DNA of 45,514 bases from Conidiobolus incongruus B7586 (Eukaryota): contig JNEM01008402.1 in assembly GCA_000697335.1 (NCBI GenBank), forward strand, positions 1-45,514, in the 5' to 3' direction. The notes below the pieces were generated by a model, which worked only from the letters and a program-made list of their open reading frames with translations, had not been told where the DNA came from and did no database searches. This document shows, piece by piece, positions 36,286 to 44,802 of this stretch (position 1 is its first letter; every line of letters begins with the position of its first letter). The position numbers were made by a program, and so were the translations under genes.

Positions 36286-37907
36286 TTATTTTGAATTTTC
36301 AATAACAATACCTAAAAGTTCCCAAGCTCTATGAAATTCTTTGGAAGTTAACTCATCAGTTTGATAATTTTTGCGTAATACTTTAAACATCGACTGCAAA
36401 ATATCTTCCAAGTTGGAATCGTCTTCATCATCGTCTTCCGGATTGAAACCCTTGAAAATTTTTATATTGAGATGGTTTGATTGAATGGTTTGCTTCAGGC
36501 CTTCAAAAGTTATCGTATCACTGTTTTTAGGGAAGAATAATTCCAGTGTTTCAGATATTAATTTCGTTGGCAATTTGTCAATATTCTTTAACTTGTTGCG
36601 GGAATTAGATAGGTTGGGGCTTTTGGAAGACGATCCCGACGTCCTGAAATCATTTATACGGAATTTGCGTCGTTCTTTCGTCAGATCTGGCATCTCTGAA
36701 CCCCATCCTGGTAGTCTTATAACCTAATATTAATTAGTATTGGTGCTAATTTATATTTTGAATAAATTACAATTGCACTACAATTATCTTGTGCCCCGAA
36801 CATTTCAGCTAATTTCACTACTTCTACAGCCGCTGATGTGGGATCGGGACAGGTTTTTATCTAAATTAAAGAATTAAGATGAAAAGCTGATCAATTATGA
36901 AATCATAATGAAATTACAATATCAACAATCTCCTGGTCCGAAATAACTGATAAAATCCCATCCGTTACCAAAGTTAAAAAAGCCAAATCGTCTCCACTAT
37001 AATTCCTCGAGGTGGTATCAGGCTCAGCAATCACTCCATATTTTTTGGCGGATAAATCACCAAATGCTCGGGTGTTGGCGAATTTCCCCATTGTCATATC
37101 TTCGCCAAACGAGTCGGTGATGATGAACCCGCCCAGGGATTTGATTCTAGCTCGCTCTTTCGGTAGGGAGGGATGGTGCTCCACCGATATGACTTCGGAT
37201 CTTCCTGTCTTGGTGTGGCAAACGATAGCCCTAACCAATTAATCAGTGTAATTATACAAAAGGTATAAAAATTACCTAGTATCTCCCACATTAGCCAACG
37301 TAATCGTATATTTCTTTGATTCCCAAAAGGGCAAATCGTCCACTGTCTTAATAATAGCTGTCGCAGCAGTCGCGCCTCCTACCAATTTTTTCTCTCTAAT
37401 TTGCCAGTCGATATCGAGGTAGGTGAGACTTAACAACTGCTCAAGTGTGAGTGGCCTATCACTCAATTTGGTATCCACCCTATTCCTCAACGTAATGGGC
37501 GCATACTTATTCCACTTGGGACCCAACCCCCTATAATTTTCAATGATTTGCTTCAAATCCTTAGGTTCAATACTCTCTAGTCTCTGGGGTAATTTGCACA
37601 CCAGATGATCGACGCATTGAGAACCCCCATGCCCATCAAATAGTCCCGCGAATACCAAATTCTGAGCTGGAAACCCTTTTATACTGAGTGCTCGCACGTT
37701 ATATCGGTCCTCGTTGTATTCTCTATTGTTTCGCGTCGACCTGATACCGATCAAGTGGTTGGAATTGTGTAAATTCACTTTGAGGTTGGGATTACTCCCA
37801 GGTATATAGTGATTAAAGCCATTATCAACGTTCTGGGAATAGAATCGAATAATGTAAGAAGAGATTGGTTTAATTTTTTTAATATTATTGAGTAATAGTT
37901 TTGCCAT
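36286..37907 (-). CDS. Mitochondrial PP2C-family phosphatase (Ptc6/Aup1-like) with C-terminal extension, 4 exons: 37907-37276, 37230-36918, 36860-36771, 36723-36286
   Basis: Basic presequence, REYNEDR, LFDGHGG, ANVGDTR, HHP..PKE..RI, NTRAFGD, LVTDG, AQDNCSAIVIRLPGWG. GT-AG introns join the three track ORFs in frame. Confidence 0.88.
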
Positions 37908-38036: not shown

Positions 38037-38108
38037 GACGTGTTGGCACAATGGTAGCGCGTCCGCCTCCAGAGCGGAAGGCTGGGAGTTCGAGTCTCTC
38101 ACGCGTCA
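38037..38108 (+). tRNA. tRNA-Trp (anticodon CCA), intronless
   Basis: Acceptor stem GACGTGT/ACGCGTC, D arm GCAC-AATGGTA-GCGC, anticodon stem TCCGC/GCGGA with loop CTCCAGA, T arm GGGAG-TTCGAGT-CTCTC. T-rich tract downstream. Confidence 0.92.
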
Positions 38109-38835
38109 TTTCATTTATTCATCTCAATTATTGTCTCTTTTTGCATTTTCTTTTTCATTTTTTATTTAACACTTACTTAATTCATTTGATATTTTTTACA
38201 ACAAACTTATTCATTTTTAACCTTCACATTATATTATAGTCATGAATTTTTTATATTTTATAATTTTGATTAATTAAATCAATAAATCTAAAATTATTGA
38301 AATCAAGAGTGTAATTTACAAATTATACAAATCTTAATATTAATTCAATAAATATAATATTTTATATAGTGTTTTTATCATGAATTTCCTAAATTAAAAT
38401 TGATATAAAAACAAAATGACTATAAGATATTATTCAAATATATTTTGTTGATAAACTTTGAAACATATTATTAAAATTTGTATATTAATTTTTTAAAATT
38501 TTTAATAAAATTATCCTTAATATGATATAAAATTTAGAAATTTGAAACTTTGGTTAAATTTAAATATATATATTTCATTGCTCTAGATTATAAAGATATT
38601 GAATTACTATGAATTATATAGTTTTTTGATTGTTATAATTTGTTGTTTTAATTTTATTTTTTATTTAATATGCCATTCCCAGAATCTCCTTTGGTCTTGA
38701 GCATTCCTTATAATATTTTATCAAGGCCTAAATAAATCATGACTTTAAACATATATACTTCAATATATTTTTATAATAATATTTAATTGGAATAAATATA
38801 GTATTAAATACAATATTATCATATTTAATCTATTA

Positions 38836-39400
38836 TGAACATTTCTGAATATTCTTGGTATTAAAATACTTTGATAGCTATGAATCTGATTAAGTAGTTT
38901 ATATATCAAAATAAAATTAATAGGGTTAAAATCATATAAATTTCAAATAAATCTAGACTTTATTTGATGTTTAGTATCATATAATTTTAATTTCAGAGAA
39001 AGCAATATATGGCCCAAAAACAAAGCTTGTTATATTAAAAATAAGACCTTGAATAATAAGTCTAATATCTCAAAAAATCCTTGATAATAAAATTATTTTG
39101 ATTATCAATTCAAAATTATAAATATTATGGCTTCAAAATATCATTAAAACATATTTATAAAGCAATTATCTATAAGTCATTATTGCCTATAAAAAGAAGC
39201 TTTGTTATAATAAATTTAAACTTTATAATTTAATCGTGAATAAAACTAATATAAAACTTATAGCTTTAAGGCAAAACATTCAAAAGTATATTATAACAAA
39301 ACAATATATTAATAATTCTTTCGTAAAATATAATTATTATACACTAAAGAACATAGAATTGAATTCAAAAAAATAAATTAAATATAATTTAATGAAAAAT
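38836..39400 (+). pseudogene. tnpA: IS607-family TnpA serine recombinase relic
   Basis: NRVKII*ISNKSRLY (38919-38963, cf. IRTPGGxRLY); KACY.. then DLE**V*YLK (39045-39074, cf. CYARVSS..DLERQVxYLK); NYKYYGF (cf. NYKRxGF); VIIAYKKKLCYNKFKL (from 39176, cf. VVVAYKDRLCRFGFEL). Confidence 0.72.
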
Positions 39401-39418
39401 AATCTTAAAGAAATTTAT

Positions 39419-40530
39419 ATGAAAATCAAGAAAATCAAGTGATTTCCAACTCACAAATAAAGAATACTGATGAAATAGTTAACATAATAAAATTAATAAT
39501 AATATTTATATTAAAGTTATAAGGAATGGAATAGTCAAAATTAAAAAATAAATTAATAATCAAATATTTAAACATGACTTGCGTAAAAAATAAAAACCAG
39601 CAAGTATTAAATGGTCCTTTAGTATTTTAGAACAAGCAATAAATAATTTATTAAAAGTACATGATACAATAATATTACACAAAAGAAAAATACTAAACTC
39701 AAAAATAAAAACAAATAATAAGTTTGAATCAATTGATTGTCACTGTAGATATTTCAATAGATAAATGTTTTTTATTTCGCTTATTTTAATAATATGTTTA
39801 TTTAAAAAGTTAAACTCCTGCCATAAAAACTCAATTATAGTTTTTATTATCAAAAGACAGTGTGGTGAATTTTATTTTAGTGATTTAATTTTGCTAGAAA
39901 TTAAAGATAACTACCAAGTTCATAAGTAATATATAGTTCAGAAAATCATTTTATCCTTTAATCTTGTAATATAAATTTTTATACGAAAATTATTCTGTTT
40001 TATGTAATTATTAAATGTAAAGAAGTTAGTTATTTTTATTTTACTTATTATAAGCTGAAAAAAATAATCACAAAATGAAACCTACTATAGAAAAAATTAT
40101 ACATTAGAAAAAGCAACAACAGATAAAAATTAAAAAGCTTTTAAATAAGGTATATAAATATCTTTAAAATTAATTTCTAGATAATATCGTATTATTTTAT
40201 TTACTAAATTTAAGACTCAAAAGATAAAGAGAAAAACTAACAGATATATTAATAGTAAAAGTATAAGGGTAATGTTAAGGTGGTTTCACTAAAAATTTAA
40301 ACAAAAATTACTCAACAAAACAAGAGAATACCTTTGTTGTGAGCTAATCATTTGCGACAAGCATTATATAAGCAAAAATATTTGGTTATTATGAATATTT
40401 GCATATATAACTTGAATCAAGCAAGATTCTCAAGTTCCTTCAGCGTCATGTAATAATGCATCAAGATATTAATGCTGCTAGGAACATGCTTCTTTGTTAT
40501 CTGACAGTTAGTCCAGCTAAACCTCTATGA
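39419..40530 (+). pseudogene. Fanzor2 / IS607-type TnpB RNA-guided endonuclease relic
   Basis: KIK*FPTHK*R (cf. KIRLYPTxxQ); EQAINNLLK; GEFYF; SFNLVI*IFI at 39954-39983 (cf. RuvC-I ALDPGVRTFM); INSKSIRVMLRWFH*KFKQKLL (cf. SKTARxMLTWSHYxFKQRL); CDKHYISK at 40353 (cf. xEHYTSKTC); degraded zinc finger; QDINAARNMLLCYLT at 40462-40506 (RuvC-III). Confidence 0.85.
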
Positions 40531-40620
40531 TCGGTGTCGTGACATACTCCCTTCGGGTCCCTGGATTTCTTGCAACACTTGTACAAGAGTGATCAATTTT
40601 GATCAATTTTTGACAATTTT
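40500..40620 (+). ncRNA. Candidate omegaRNA (reRNA) scaffold / transposon right end
   Basis: Directly 3' of the Fanzor RuvC-III. It is a GC-richer island with a CC-TTCG-GG tetraloop, a TCTTG...CAAGA hairpin (40568-40588) and three TGA(T)CAATTTT repeats. The call is inferred from position; expression is unknown. Confidence 0.5.
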
Positions 40621-40905
40621 TATTATAACAATTATTCGATAATATTCTTAAATAATTAGAATTTATTAAAAATTACAAATTTAATTGATAAAATAGAAAA
40701 AATTTAAAACCTTTTGAAATTATAAATTTAATAAAAATATTCAGAAAAATTAATATAATTATAATATTTATAATTTATTATAAAAAAATTAATTAAATTT
40801 TATTTAAAAAATTTTTTTTTGGATGCTTATATCAATTATGCCAATTTATTTAATTTATACAAAAATTATTAATATACAACAGAATACCAATATGTTATTT
40901 ATTAA

Positions 40906-43497
40906 TTAATCGTCTTTAGAGTCTTCTTCAGCTTCGATACTCGCTTCGAACCCCGTGAATTCTTCCCCTTCCGAATCGTTCTCCGGTTTAGATGCCATCT
41001 GCTTTGGTTGGTTAGAATTACTATTTGCTGGCTTGACATCAGGTTTGGGTGAGTGCGGCTTTGCAAATGCGTCGCCCGCATAGACGCTGGGACGGTCTTT
41101 CGTGAGGTTAGACGGTTGGTTTTTCTCCTCTTCGGTCACGAAGCTGGGCTTGGATGGACGGGAATGGGGCTGGTGCTGTGGCTGGGATTGATGGTCATAG
41201 TGTGGTTGAGGCTGTGATTGTGACTGATGCTCATGTTGCACTTGATGCTGAGGTTTTGGTGCATTGGAACTAGGTTGTTCATGTGGTTCCGGTTCACTGC
41301 CTGGGCGAGATGCTGAAGAGTTTAACGAATGTCCTTTGGATGAATAGTGAGATTCGTTGGGTTTTATTCCATGTGGCTCTGGATGATTTCCAGATTCATG
41401 ATTTGATTGGGGCTTGGATTCTTCTTTAGGTGGTGAATCTGGTGGTGACTTGGGTGGATTTGGTGAATCATTGGGAGGTGCTGGTTCAGCATTTGGAGCT
41501 GGTGATGGAGCTGGGATTTGAGTTGGTTCGGATGCTGGCTGTGGGTTCTGTTGCGAAGGGACTGGTGAAGGATTAGGAATTTGCTGTGGATTAGGAGATG
41601 GAGCAGGAGCTGGGGCAGGCGACGGTGGAGGAGGAGTGGGAGGGGCGGGAGGAGGGGAAGGAGCAGGAGGACTTGGAGCTGGCGAGGGATTAACTTGGGA
41701 TGCAGAAGCTGCTGGTTGAGGAGGGGCTTGAGGTTGAGCAGGTGCCGGTGCCGGTGCTTGTGGCAGCGTTGGAGGAGAAGGCACTTGAGCTTGCTCCATG
41801 AAATTAATATCTGGAGTTGGTAAAGAGTCTCTATCCTCTTTAGTGAGCGTTCCTTGTGCAATGTTCTGAGGATGGACATCTTCTGGAACAATGACACTGG
41901 TAGGTTGGGCAGCAGGTGCGTCCACTTGGTTATTGTACATAGATATAATTGGAGCAAGATACGCCTCAAGAAGTGAAGCTGCAACTTTGTGTCCATTCAT
42001 TTCTTCTGAGCCACTCAATTCCTTTGGTATTGCTGTCGGTACATTTGATTTCACTTCGGTCGGCTCAGGATAGCTTATATCTTCTTCACTGTCATCACTA
42101 TCCTCACTTCCCGCTGTTGGTGAAGGTTTACTAGCAGATTCTTGTACACTTGGCGAAGGAGCAGCTGTTTCATGGGGTGGGTTGGAAGGCTTAGCATCGG
42201 GTGTATACATTCCATCATTTTTACTTGGCTTGCTAGGCTCAGTTGGGCTTGCTTGGGGCGCCATACTTGATGGAGGAGGAGTTGGCGTAGGTGATTCTGC
42301 TGCTGAAGAGTTTGGAGAACTTGGGCTAGTATTGGGAGTTGGAGAAGCTTGAGCTGACTCTGGAGCAGGAGGGGTTTGCTCAGGTTTTGATGGTGCTGGA
42401 GAATTGCTTTCTGGAGCATTTGATGGAGTGGGAGATGTCTGGGGCTTAATTTCGGTTGGAGTGCCTTCTGGTTTGTTTTCAGGTTTACCTTCAGGCTTGC
42501 TTTCGCTTGAATGACCTTTAAGTGCTTTGACCAGTCCTTCAGAATAAGATGCTTTGATTTCGGAGCAAAAATTCGCTTGTCCTTGAGATACATCCCAAAT
42601 CATAACACCACCAAATGAATTGTACTTGGCCCTGGTTTTCGTTATCAAAGGTGTTAATTTTTTGATAGGCAAATATCCAGTATTTGAAGCTGAGGGAGAA
42701 GCTGGTGCACCAAGATAGATTTTCACATCTTTGTTAATCGATTGTGTCTTTGCCCAGTTATCCCATTGGTCAAAGTTAAACGAATCAGAGCCTAAACCAC
42801 AAGGGTTGTTATAAAATTGGACGAAGGCAGCATCGAGCCAACCCCTTTCCAGTACTGTTTTTAGAGCCGCATCTGGATAAGGGCATTGTGGAGCTGCTGT
42901 GATATAATATTTCTTAGATTCGTCTTTCAGAGTTAGATTCCTTAAAGCATGGGTGAAAGTGGCATAGTTATCAGGAGGCCCTTTTTCGATATCCAGATCG
43001 ATTCCATCTAGTACTGCATCCCCAAATGGTCTAAATTTGGATTTACCTCCCAAGAATAGATTCCACATCTTATCTGCTAGATGATGGGCATGCTTTTCTT
43101 CTTTGATGGTGTAATCTCCTGAGTATCCTCCCATCGACAACACAACAGCTTTGCCTTTGGATTGGCAGTATTTAATATCTTCGCCAACTTCAGGACATTT
43201 CGCTAGATTGGTTCCAGGAAAAGTTTGATGGCAATGCTTTCCCAAATTCAACTCGGGATACAGCGACGGACTTTCGGCGTTAAATTTAGTTAAAAATGAA
43301 ACGACGAACATATCGTAAGTATCATCATTACAGTATTCTCTAAGAGGTTTTTCCATCTTGGAAGCTTCCGCCTCACTCGAACTACCATATGAGTTCTGTC
43401 CCCAATAAGCGATCAGATTTTTATCGCTCTTTATATCAAATGCCAGAGCATTGTTCCAATGATTAATTAATACAAGCGAAAGAGCAATGAATTTCAT
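40906..43497 (-). CDS. Secreted GH18 chitinase (class III/Cts1-like) with a ~530-aa Pro/Ser/Gln-rich tail
   Basis: Signal peptide, YWGQNS, DIKYCQSKGKAVVLSMGG, RPFGDAVLDGIDLDIE (DxxDxDxE), AAPQCPYPD, VQFYNN, FGGVMIWD. ATG at 43497. Confidence 0.93.
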   Translation of the reverse strand: MKFIALSLVLINHWNNALAFDIKSDKNLIAYWGQNSYGSSSEAEASKMEKPLREYCNDDTYDMFVVSFLTKFNAESPSLYPELNLGKHCHQTFPGTNLAKCPEVGEDIKYCQSKGKAVVLSMGGYSGDYTIKEEKHAHHLADKMWNLFLGGKSKFRPFGDAVLDGIDLDIEKGPPDNYATFTHALRNLTLKDESKKYYITAAPQCPYPDAALKTVLERGWLDAAFVQFYNNPCGLGSDSFNFDQWDNWAKTQSINKDVKIYLGAPASPSASNTGYLPIKKLTPLITKTRAKYNSFGGVMIWDVSQGQANFCSEIKASYSEGLVKALKGHSSESKPEGKPENKPEGTPTEIKPQTSPTPSNAPESNSPAPSKPEQTPPAPESAQASPTPNTSPSSPNSSAAESPTPTPPPSSMAPQASPTEPSKPSKNDGMYTPDAKPSNPPHETAAPSPSVQESASKPSPTAGSEDSDDSEEDISYPEPTEVKSNVPTAIPKELSGSEEMNGHKVAASLLEAYLAPIISMYNNQVDAPAAQPTSVIVPEDVHPQNIAQGTLTKEDRDSLPTPDINFMEQAQVPSPPTLPQAPAPAPAQPQAPPQPAASASQVNPSPAPSPPAPSPPPAPPTPPPPSPAPAPAPSPNPQQIPNPSPVPSQQNPQPASEPTQIPAPSPAPNAEPAPPNDSPNPPKSPPDSPPKEESKPQSNHESGNHPEPHGIKPNESHYSSKGHSLNSSASRPGSEPEPHEQPSSNAPKPQHQVQHEHQSQSQPQPHYDHQSQPQHQPHSRPSKPSFVTEEEKNQPSNLTKDRPSVYAGDAFAKPHSPKPDVKPANSNSNQPKQMASKPENDSEGEEFTGFEASIEAEEDSKDD

Positions 43498-44802
43498 CAC
43501 GATCAATATTAATGATAATTAGTGATATCAAGTAATTAATTGATCAAAAATGTTTTAATATAACTTTTGTAATATTGATAATATAGATATATGGCTTATA
43601 ATATTGTATGAAAGAATATAAAAATGATTAATTAAGTATTATACAAAAATGCCCAGGTCTGAAAAACAAAAAAAATAATCTAAGACCAGGTCAACATATA
43701 ATGAAATGTTATAGGAATGATATTTTATCAAGGTATTCCACTAGCTGATCTAATAAGCTTATATATGAATATCTCATAATAATCGTGGTACTCTTGAGGG
43801 AAACCTCTTTACCATTTGAGAACAATTGAAATAGTTACAAATACGTTTCAAAGATTTGATTCTCCACTAAATTTCAATTTCACTAATATCTCTTTATTGA
43901 ACTCAAGTTTCATAAACAATTGCTGAAAATTAAGTTGATGGTTTCAAATTAAGCTCTAATTTGATTGGTTCAATTCGATTATTAAAGTTGTCAAGTGTAT
44001 ATCATCTAATTGTTTCATAATTCCAATCATTCAAATATTATCAAAGATGGGTTCTACAATACTGATACTCATAGTGAATGTTTATTACGTTTGAATATAT
44101 TCTTAAATTAATATAGTTTATAATTAAACAAATGGTAAATCTTTTGATTTGAATACAAAATATATATTTACTTTATTTAATATAATAGCTTAAATTAGTA
44201 TGTTTTAAAAATTTTATCAATGATCATATTCAATATTGCCAAGAATAACTTTGGTGAATTGACTATTATTTAATAATATTTATTGCATATATTTATCACA
44301 TTTAATTTACTATTTATTTTTTCATCATTTTTGAGAATTTGTAATTCCTTCATATTCATAATTTTTGAAACAAATTTTTGATTTTATAGTATTCAATGAT
44401 GAAATGGATAAATATATTTTTGATAATAGTCAAACATTAATAATCAAATATTATGTTACTCATTATTTAAATGTTTGTATACTTTAATTAAGTTTAATTT
44501 AAATAATTTAGGAAGAGCTTAATATAATAGGATAGTATTAAGAAATAGTATTAAAATTTTGTACCAATATTATTATATTGTAGTATTCAATTGAAAAATA
44601 TATTAAAAATATTTGAAATTTTCGGAATAAGTTTATAAAAAATAATGTAAATATGAATATAAATATAATAGTTTAATATTTCGATAAAAATGGTATAATT
44701 TTATAATAATAAAATCCTGAAATTAAAATTATATTAGCATTTATTTTGTTATAAGAATTAATGTATAAGTGTTTGATACTTAAATTTAGTCTTAAGATAT
44801 TG

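What the first reader, a model, noticed from the sequence alone, without database searches (positions are those of the whole stretch)
38830..40620. Fossil IS607-type element carrying a Fanzor2 RNA-guided nuclease and its serine recombinase, hidden in intergenic DNA
Seen in the sequence: no ORF is called here, but reading through stops and frameshifts gives two genes in order on one strand. The first has IS607 TnpA motifs (IRTPGGxRLY-like HTH, DLERQ-like, AYKDRLCR-like). The second is a TnpB/Fanzor with N-terminal KIxxFPT, RuvC-I DPG-like (39954), ML.W.H.F, (E>K)HYISK just before a zinc-finger remnant, and an almost untouched DINAARNMLL (40465). Established: Fanzor2 proteins are eukaryotic descendants of IS607-associated TnpB, with a DPG motif and a catalytic Glu relocated next to the zinc finger, and they act as omegaRNA-guided DNA endonucleases. 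Inference: this fungal lineage hosted a complete two-gene prokaryote-style OMEGA transposon, and intact copies elsewhere could be an uncharacterised Fanzor2 family. This copy is dead.
Basis: partly seen in the sequence, partly recalled or inferred. Interest (0 to 1): 0.88.

Follow-up and report, generated by a model that had tools for sequence, protein, structure and literature searches.

The report
Dead Fanzor2 transposon with nested transposase
This stretch is a decayed copy of a bacterial-style jumping gene (a transposase plus an RNA-guided Fanzor2 nuclease) in what is likely an insect-fungus (Entomophthorales) genome; it is a known kind of element, but in its intact relatives the front of the nuclease is written in a second reading frame inside the transposase gene, and this copy likely shared that layout.

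Summary
Observation confirmed. One reading frame with stops as X found 269 TnpB-family proteins (best E 1.3e-13), nearly all Fanzor2-type. A frameshift-aware profile aligns a Fanzor2 collinearly over 39419-40569 (score 303; shuffles max 78). A tnpA remnant at 38835-39363 is weaker but supported (1-2 of 1000 shuffles; DNA profile z 7.9). The copy is dead: two of three catalytic residues and all four zinc-finger Cys are lost. The source runs hold about 28 other diverged fragments. The host is likely Entomophthorales (one gene). Fungal Fanzor2s are already published, including Glomeromycota kin; I found no Entomophthorales record. Added here: in 39 of 42 intact same-strand loci the Fanzor2 ORF overprints tnpA in the +1 frame, with 1.0 stop against 11.9 expected. 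Cyanobacterial pro-Fanzors share this; canonical IS607s do not. The overprinted motif matches the RNA-contacting RuvC-R part of mimivirus Fanzor2 (weak alignment). This scan found that layout before on other DNA; I did not find it in print. New member of a known kind.

The parts
38835..39363 (+). tnpA remnant (IS607 serine recombinase: MerR-like HTH plus resolvase domain), broken by stops and several short indels; the VSS stretch with the catalytic serine appears deleted between 39039 and 39045
   Evidence: glocal profile 1-2 of 1000 shuffles; DNA profile z 7.9; deletion is my reading of the sequence
39028..39418 (+). same DNA read as the remnant of the Fanzor2 N-terminal extension (equivalents of PFWN, LWLPT and NSWF at about 39127-39266), i.e. 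the second frame over tnpA
   Evidence: P0303, P0304 align from 39204; 13-sequence extension profile: 1 of 500 shuffles glocal, 2 of 500 local, but not the top of 160 AT-rich tiles; not independent of the tnpA match
39419..40518 (+). Fanzor2 core remnant (HTH/REC, WED, RuvC, zinc finger), 8-13 frameshifts and 11-14 stops by alignment
   Evidence: 34% identity over 346 positions to P0307
39960..39968 (+). RuvC-I DPG position, now N-L-V (catalytic Asp lost)
40359..40361 (+). shifted RuvC-II Glu position six residues before the zinc finger, now Lys
40381..40446 (+). zinc-finger remnant; the four Cys positions read F, Y, F, R; frameshift near 40377
   Evidence: sister fragments show Cys at the first two positions
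40465..40494 (+). RuvC-III DINAARNMLL, catalytic Asp retained
40495..40625 (+). right end and inferred omegaRNA region; GC 0.45 against 0.05-0.12 beyond it
   Evidence: GC profile; block at 40539-40551 conserved in 7 of 7 aligned right ends; sister-contig depth falls from 117 to 25 between 40601 and 40628; no fold signal (z -0.23)
40590..40619 (+). three short direct repeats TGA(T)CAATTT at 40590, 40600, 40611; candidate TnpA binding sites (role recalled for IS607 ends, untested)

Best explanation
This is a dead copy of an IS607-type transposon, with a broken serine-recombinase gene (tnpA) followed by a broken Fanzor2 nuclease gene, likely one of tens of decayed copies in a fungal nuclear genome. 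Shown: the two remnants, their order, the lost catalytic residues, the sister fragments. Inferred from characterised relatives: when intact, TnpA excised the element and inserted it at a GG-type site without terminal repeats, and Fanzor2, loaded with an omegaRNA made from the right end plus flank, cut the empty donor site so that repair restored the element. Shown in intact relatives and inferred for this copy's ancestor: the Fanzor2 ORF started near the tnpA start codon and ran through tnpA in the +1 frame, adding about 150-200 residues that include the W-x-P...NSW motif. Inferred: two start codons a few bases apart would let one mRNA give both proteins by leaky scanning. The copy then decayed by neutral, AT-biased mutation and short indels.
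For: Fanzor2 homology. Tree of 150 of 312 sequences: the window falls in a 9-leaf clade (support 0.995) with P0307, P0302, P0304, P0323, P0305, P0321 and Scutellospora P0125, inside a 45-leaf clade with Glomeromycota proteins (0.928). The intact neighbour P0307 hits mimivirus Fanzor2 9B0L first by sequence (E 2.4e-23) and by fold (E 1.2e-19, TM 0.63). tnpA at the expected place, strand and length. No terminal inverted repeat (196 of 500 shuffles as good). Sister copies: 28 of 29 contigs laid from run X1 and 34 of 35 from X4 are other, 80-95% alike pieces. Overprinting: 39 of 42 loci, all +1; mean 1.0 stop in +1, 17.7 in +2, 11.9 expected, 41 genes; 7 loci with tnpA on the opposite strand have 24-45 stops; AUGs 4-10 nt apart in 15 of 39. 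The closest full-length relatives P0303, P0304, P0321, P0323 carry the extension motif.
Against: The tnpA signal is modest: only its C-terminal block is significant alone, and 6 of 33 single TnpA queries reach z>=3. The scoring model assumes GC-to-AT decay. The left end and the target dinucleotide were not mapped. No omegaRNA fold signal. The window's match to the extension is not independent of its match to tnpA, so an open +1 frame in this copy's ancestor rests on its relatives. For those closest relatives I have proteins only, not DNA. The window sits on a long branch (1.66) in the tree. Shuffling each gene's own codons gives only 4.3 expected stops, a smaller gap than the GC-weighted null. 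In 24 of 39 loci the AUGs are not 4-10 nt apart, and my tnpA start call failed in 6. The sister contigs may include other organisms in the run; runs X5 and X7 (same species label, other samples) laid nothing.
Confidence: 0.85

Rival explanations
1. A non-autonomous Fanzor2 (Fanzor2*-like or tnpA-less) whose upstream DNA only keeps the N-terminal extension; tnpA was already lost and the element was moved by another transposase.
For: 47 of 89 distinct Fanzor2 ORFs in my loci have no same-strand tnpA, and some keep the extension motif without it. Fanzor2* elements with TIRs are described (10.1101/2023.08.09.552727). The extension and tnpA share DNA, so one remnant mimics the other.
Against: The match runs over the full tnpA length from an ATG at 38835, and is strongest in the tnpA frame (VIIAYKKKLCYNKFKL). 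No TIR found.
Confidence: 0.08
2. The copies are passengers of old giant-virus insertions or segmental duplications, not products of transposition in the fungal nucleus.
For: Fanzor2-IS607 elements are common in giant-virus contigs. [quoted passage not shown]
Against: The flanks here are a tRNA-Trp and ordinary fungal genes. Sister-contig depth drops to one copy right at 40625, as expected if only the element is shared. The best viral hit is 45% to P0307, while its cellular or unassigned relatives are 54-79%.
Confidence: 0.06
3. Chance motif matches in AT-rich, Lys-rich intergenic DNA.
For: No Pfam, NCBIfam or PDB hit on the raw frames; first homologue search empty.
Against: Database-wide E 1.3e-13; independent profile far above all shuffles; sister fragments show family residues at all five variant places in the zinc-finger entry.
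Confidence: 0.01

Closest known systems
Fanzor2 in IS607-type elements (IS607EU; ISvNY2A, ISvAR158, ISvMimi, Acanthamoeba ACa; PMC3627910, PMC13565253, 10.1101/2023.08.09.552727)
   Same: tnpA serine recombinase plus TnpB-like nuclease with HTH, DPG position, Glu six residues before the zinc finger; no TIR found.
   Different: Host is likely an Entomophthorales fungus, not listed in the supplements I searched; this copy is dead; the nested +1 layout of relatives is not described in the passages I read.
ApmFz2 / mimivirus L79 (PDB 9B0L; PMC11832414)
   Same: Top sequence and fold match of the intact relative P0307. Its residues 68-85 (W-I-P...N-S-W) resemble the overprinted motif; the paper reports Asn82 and Ser83 contacting the omegaRNA pseudoknot.
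   Different: Only 23% identical to P0307. The N-terminal alignment is weak (via L041; not significant alone). The TAM and omegaRNA of the fungal subfamily are untested.
Glomeromycota Fanzor2 proteins (Diversispora, Gigaspora, Rhizophagus, Scutellospora)
   Same: Same clade; listed among Fanzor hits in the supplements of PMC10711439 and PMC10432273. Gigaspora model P0349 fuses a TnpA C-terminus to the nuclease.
   Different: Different fungal phylum; no functional test of them seen in the papers I read.
Cyanobacterial pro-Fanzor IS607 (Nostoc PCC 7120 plasmid alpha, Trichormus, Microcoleus phage)
   Same: DPG, shifted Glu, and the same +1 extension with the FWN...LW/LL.P/A..TD...NSWF-type motif.
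   Different: Prokaryotic; 31-36% identity to P0307.

Membership tests
Fanzor2 | TnpB-like RuvC plus zinc-finger protein, closer to IS607 TnpB than to Fanzor1 | tested here: met
   model of relative P0307 matches 9B0L at rank 1 and Fanzor1 only at ranks 45 and 50
Fanzor2 | DPG motif in RuvC-I | tested here: inconclusive
   position aligns but reads N-L-V, one base change per codon; 80 of 81 long relatives have DPG
Fanzor2 | Catalytic Glu six residues before the zinc finger | tested here: inconclusive
   position aligns but reads Lys (one G-to-A change); 78 of 81 long relatives have it
Fanzor2 | N-terminal HTH (PF12323) region | tested here: met
   KIKKIK*FPT at 39422 aligns to the family's K-IRL-P; relatives hit PF12323
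Fanzor2 | Encoded in a eukaryotic genome | tested here: met
   flanked by tRNA-Trp and fungal genes; neighbour gene 67% to Conidiobolus coronatus; whole contig in source runs
Fanzor2 | omegaRNA from the right end with pseudoknot | tested here: inconclusive
   conserved block in 7 right ends, no fold signal, no Rfam match, no RNA holder listed
Fanzor2 | RNA-guided DNA cleavage | not testable with these tools
   this copy cannot be active: RuvC-I Asp, RuvC-II Glu and four Cys lost
IS607 | tnpA serine recombinase with N-terminal MerR-like HTH upstream of tnpB | tested here: met
   modest significance, HTH not significant alone
IS607 | No terminal inverted repeats | tested here: met
   196 of 500 shuffles score as well; decay could hide a TIR
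IS607 | Insertion at a GG dinucleotide without target duplication | not tested
   left end and empty site not obtained
Fanzor2* (TIR-captured, non-IS607) | TIRs and target duplication, no tnpA | tested here: not met
   tnpA remnant present, no TIR
Fanzor1 | Divergent clade carried by eukaryotic DDE or Helitron transposons | tested here: not met
   no Fanzor1 was included in the tree

The most novel reading that the evidence does not exclude
The pro-Fanzor/Fanzor2 lineage built its extra N-terminal domain, including the RNA-contacting RuvC-R part, de novo by overprinting tnpA in the +1 frame, already in cyanobacteria. That put both start codons at the 5' end of one transcript, so a scanning ribosome can make both proteins, which is why this one IS607 clade could invade eukaryotes. 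This fossil and its sisters record such a complete element transposing in the nucleus of an Entomophthorales fungus.
Probability: 0.35. Interest if true: 0.8.

Novelty: new member of a known kind. Interest (0 to 1): 0.5.

Why it matters
The fossil itself extends complete IS607-Fanzor2 elements to another fungal phylum and points to a large, untested subfamily of compact RNA-guided nucleases (945 proteins at E<=1e-60 from one relative), many intact, so nothing needs resurrecting. The family-wide overlap matters more. It offers a testable answer to a question left open by 10.1101/2023.08.09.552727 (why this TnpB clade suited eukaryotes) and an origin for the N-terminal domain that PMC11832414 calls unique to Fanzor2. 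It also means annotated start codons can cut off that domain, as in the two cyanobacterial records, which would affect anyone cloning these enzymes.

Tried and rejected
No whole genome is held for this window. Pfam and NCBIfam on three X-read frames: 0 families. PDB by sequence: 0. Word-seeded homologue search with an 84-aa piece: 19 candidates, none passed. Viral-contig scans with that piece and with P0274: no relative; genome-contig scan: 1 short locus. Low-stringency blastn against AT-rich loci gave only composition noise. Rfam: tRNA only. Right-end RNA fold z -0.23. No RNA holder listed. Runs X5 and X7 laid nothing, which is no proof of absence. The left end was not covered by any read layout, so it stays unmapped. 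RIP-type silencing rejected: no CpA/TpG or TpA skew (o/e 1.06, 1.07, 0.93). An idea that overprinting is a eukaryote-only adaptation was rejected: it is present in Nostoc, Trichormus and a Microcoleus phage. No second remnant elsewhere in the window (98 AT-rich tiles). A tandem-AUG pair at 38835 could not be shown. A paper for IS607 end repeats was not found, so that role is recalled. The W-x-P...NSW count (6 of 30 overprinted, 6 of 38 others, shuffles <=1) used a crude cut rule and undercounts.

Full report
Observation. Profile libraries miss the raw frames. An exhaustive phmmer search with one frame (39561-40436, stops as X) returned 269 proteins at E<=1e-3, best 1.3e-13. Of the 150 listed, 81 are at least 380 aa; 80 have DPG and 78 the Glu six residues before the zinc finger; 12 of 13 that I scanned hit PF07282. 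To avoid circularity I also collected 77 viral loci by a motif scan. Their best tblastn hit in the whole window is here (44%, E 2.8e-16), and a profile of 44 of them scores 175 against a maximum of 69.5 in 100 local shuffles. A profile of 76 search hits aligns collinearly from 39419 to 40569 (303 against 78; 8 frameshifts, 14 stops).

The transposase. Evidence is weaker. A 36-sequence TnpA profile fits 38838-39363 better than all 500 shuffles but ties with the best of 126 AT-rich tiles, and only its C-terminal block is significant alone. Six of 33 single queries reach z>=3. A profile rebuilt from 39 Fanzor2-linked genes gives 1 and 2 of 1000 shuffles and beats all 131 other AT-rich tiles; a DNA-level profile gives z 7.9, 0 of 300, 54.7 against 36.7 for the next tile. 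Place, strand and length are as expected. By my reading the catalytic-serine stretch is deleted near 39040.

State of the copy. Of 22 highly conserved Fanzor columns 8 are kept; RuvC-I Asp, RuvC-II Glu and four Cys are lost; 11 of 15 inferred changes are G/C to A/T, with no RIP-like dinucleotide skew (the aligner assumes such bias). The copy is dead.

Host and copies. The neighbouring flavin oxidoreductase is 67% identical to Conidiobolus coronatus, 62% to Entomophthora and 60% to Neoconidiobolus, so the host is likely Entomophthorales; this rests on one gene. Four runs of one sample hold the DNA and may be its source. Laying two of them on 39900-40660 gave, besides the source contig, 28 and 34 other contigs at 80-95% identity, none between 95 and 99%, with depth falling to the single contig past about 40625. 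Two runs of other samples laid nothing. Of 27 variant places, 11 move toward the family residue, 10 away (4 make stops), 6 are silent: the sisters are decayed too. An intact sister could be too distant from this copy to be laid. No terminal inverted repeat was found; three short direct repeats lie at 40590-40619. A block at 40539-40551 is conserved across 7 right ends, but the RNA fold is no better than shuffles. The left end and target site remain unmapped.

Relatives. The nearest intact proteins are unnamed metagenome sequences, P0307 first (34% over 346 positions). In a FastTree tree (150 of 312 sequences kept after a 62% identity filter, 7 canonical TnpBs as outgroup, no Fanzor1) the window groups with them and a Scutellospora protein (0.995), inside a clade with Diversispora, Gigaspora and Rhizophagus proteins (0.928), on a long branch. 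P0307 matches mimivirus Fanzor2 (9B0L) best by sequence and by predicted fold.

Nested genes. Among 89 distinct Fanzor2 ORFs in my loci, 42 have a same-strand tnpA; in 39 the Fanzor2 ORF overlaps it by at least 300 nt, always in the +1 frame (two loci are near-duplicates). Across 41 such tnpA cores the +1 frame has 1.0 stop on average, the +2 frame 17.7; synonymous recoding predicts 11.9, or 4.3 when each gene's own codons are shuffled. Controls: seven loci with tnpA on the opposite strand have 24-45 stops; seven other bacterial IS607 tnpA genes have 5-20, mean 12.1 against 13.7 expected. The first Fanzor AUG lies 4-10 nt after the tnpA AUG in 15 of 39. Nostoc, Trichormus and a Microcoleus phage share the layout, so it predates eukaryotes. 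These loci are related, so counts are not independent events. The extension holds a W-x-P...NSW motif; through L041 it aligns weakly to residues 58-89 of 9B0L, where PMC11832414 places the RuvC-R subdomain and reports Asn82 and Ser83 contacting the omegaRNA pseudoknot. In the window the same DNA fits an extension profile (1 of 500 shuffles, but not the best of 160 tiles). That fit is not independent of the tnpA fit; the claim for this copy's ancestor rests on its closest relatives carrying the extension.

Mechanism. From characterised systems: IS607 TnpA excises and integrates at GG sites, and TnpB cuts the empty donor joint to promote retention (PMC10690162, passages; shown for a bacterial IStron); Fanzor2s are omegaRNA-guided nucleases with short G-rich TAMs (PMC13565253, PMC10530073, PMC10432273; passages). 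I infer the same for the ancestor of this copy. Leaky scanning is my inference and is untested.

Literature. Read: 10.1101/2023.08.09.552727 parts 1-5 of 7 and passages; passages of PMC3627910, PMC10530073, PMC13565253, PMC3673617, PMC10690162, PMC10711439, PMC10432273, PMC10691335; passages and section 6 of PMC11832414. Fanzor2 in IS607 elements and in fungi is published. Supplement searches found Glomeromycota but no Conidiobolus or Entomophthora rows (one scanned file was not searchable); a text search for Fanzor with Conidiobolus gave 0 papers. The long +1 overlap was not described in these passages or in the listings of searches; PMC3673617 does mention overlapping ORFs in IS607 generally and a 100-aa N-terminal insertion in an Acanthamoeba ORFB. 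Subscription papers, figures, Repbase and ISfinder were not seen. Eight earlier notes of this scan report the same overlap on other DNA; I saw them after my own tests, and none covered this genome or host group.

Verdict. A real, dead IS607-Fanzor2 copy: a new member of a known kind in a probably new host group. The family's nested coding is the part a specialist would find surprising. Interest 0.5.

Noticed in passing
window 38037-38108: tRNA-Trp(CCA) about 730 nt upstream of the tnpA remnant; no evidence of tRNA targeting.
   Followed up: no
window 38670-38745: Short GC-richer island in AT-rich DNA just upstream of the element; candidate left end, no match in my loci.
   Followed up: partly
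window 40401-40600: The 3' end is much richer in GC (0.34-0.45) than the rest of the element (0.12-0.26); slower decay or higher starting GC, unexplained.
   Followed up: no
window 40273-40394: One sister contig per run skips 120 nt here, an internally deleted copy.
   Followed up: no
L316:976-2709, L317:976-2709: The cyanobacterial TnpB frame is open about 530-560 nt upstream of the annotated start and carries the Fanzor2 extension motif; tnpA there is split and unannotated.
   Followed up: partly
L244, L249, L252, L257, L260, L262, L270, L281, L286, L287: DPG-type, overprinted TnpBs whose zinc finger has lost most or all Cys (SKT-SWTG type) yet keep the shifted Glu.
   Followed up: no
L033, L041, L050, L107, L308, L311, L315: Fanzor2 loci with tnpA on the opposite strand; L041 and L050 keep a shortened W-x-P...NSW motif although nothing overlaps it.
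   Followed up: partly
P0349 (Gigaspora margarita): Gene model joins a TnpA C-terminus to a Fanzor2, a sign of two-gene elements in arbuscular mycorrhizal fungi.
   Followed up: no
L238:3-149: A 1084-nt contig in a bacterial MAG is 88% identical to fungal-type Fanzor2 P0274; likely binning contamination.
   Followed up: no
window 40906-43506 (-), 37272-37907 (-), 2936-4102 (-): Neighbour ORFs look like a GH18 chitinase with a long Pro-rich tail, a PP2C phosphatase and a phytochelatin synthase (labels recalled from motifs, not searched).
   Followed up: no
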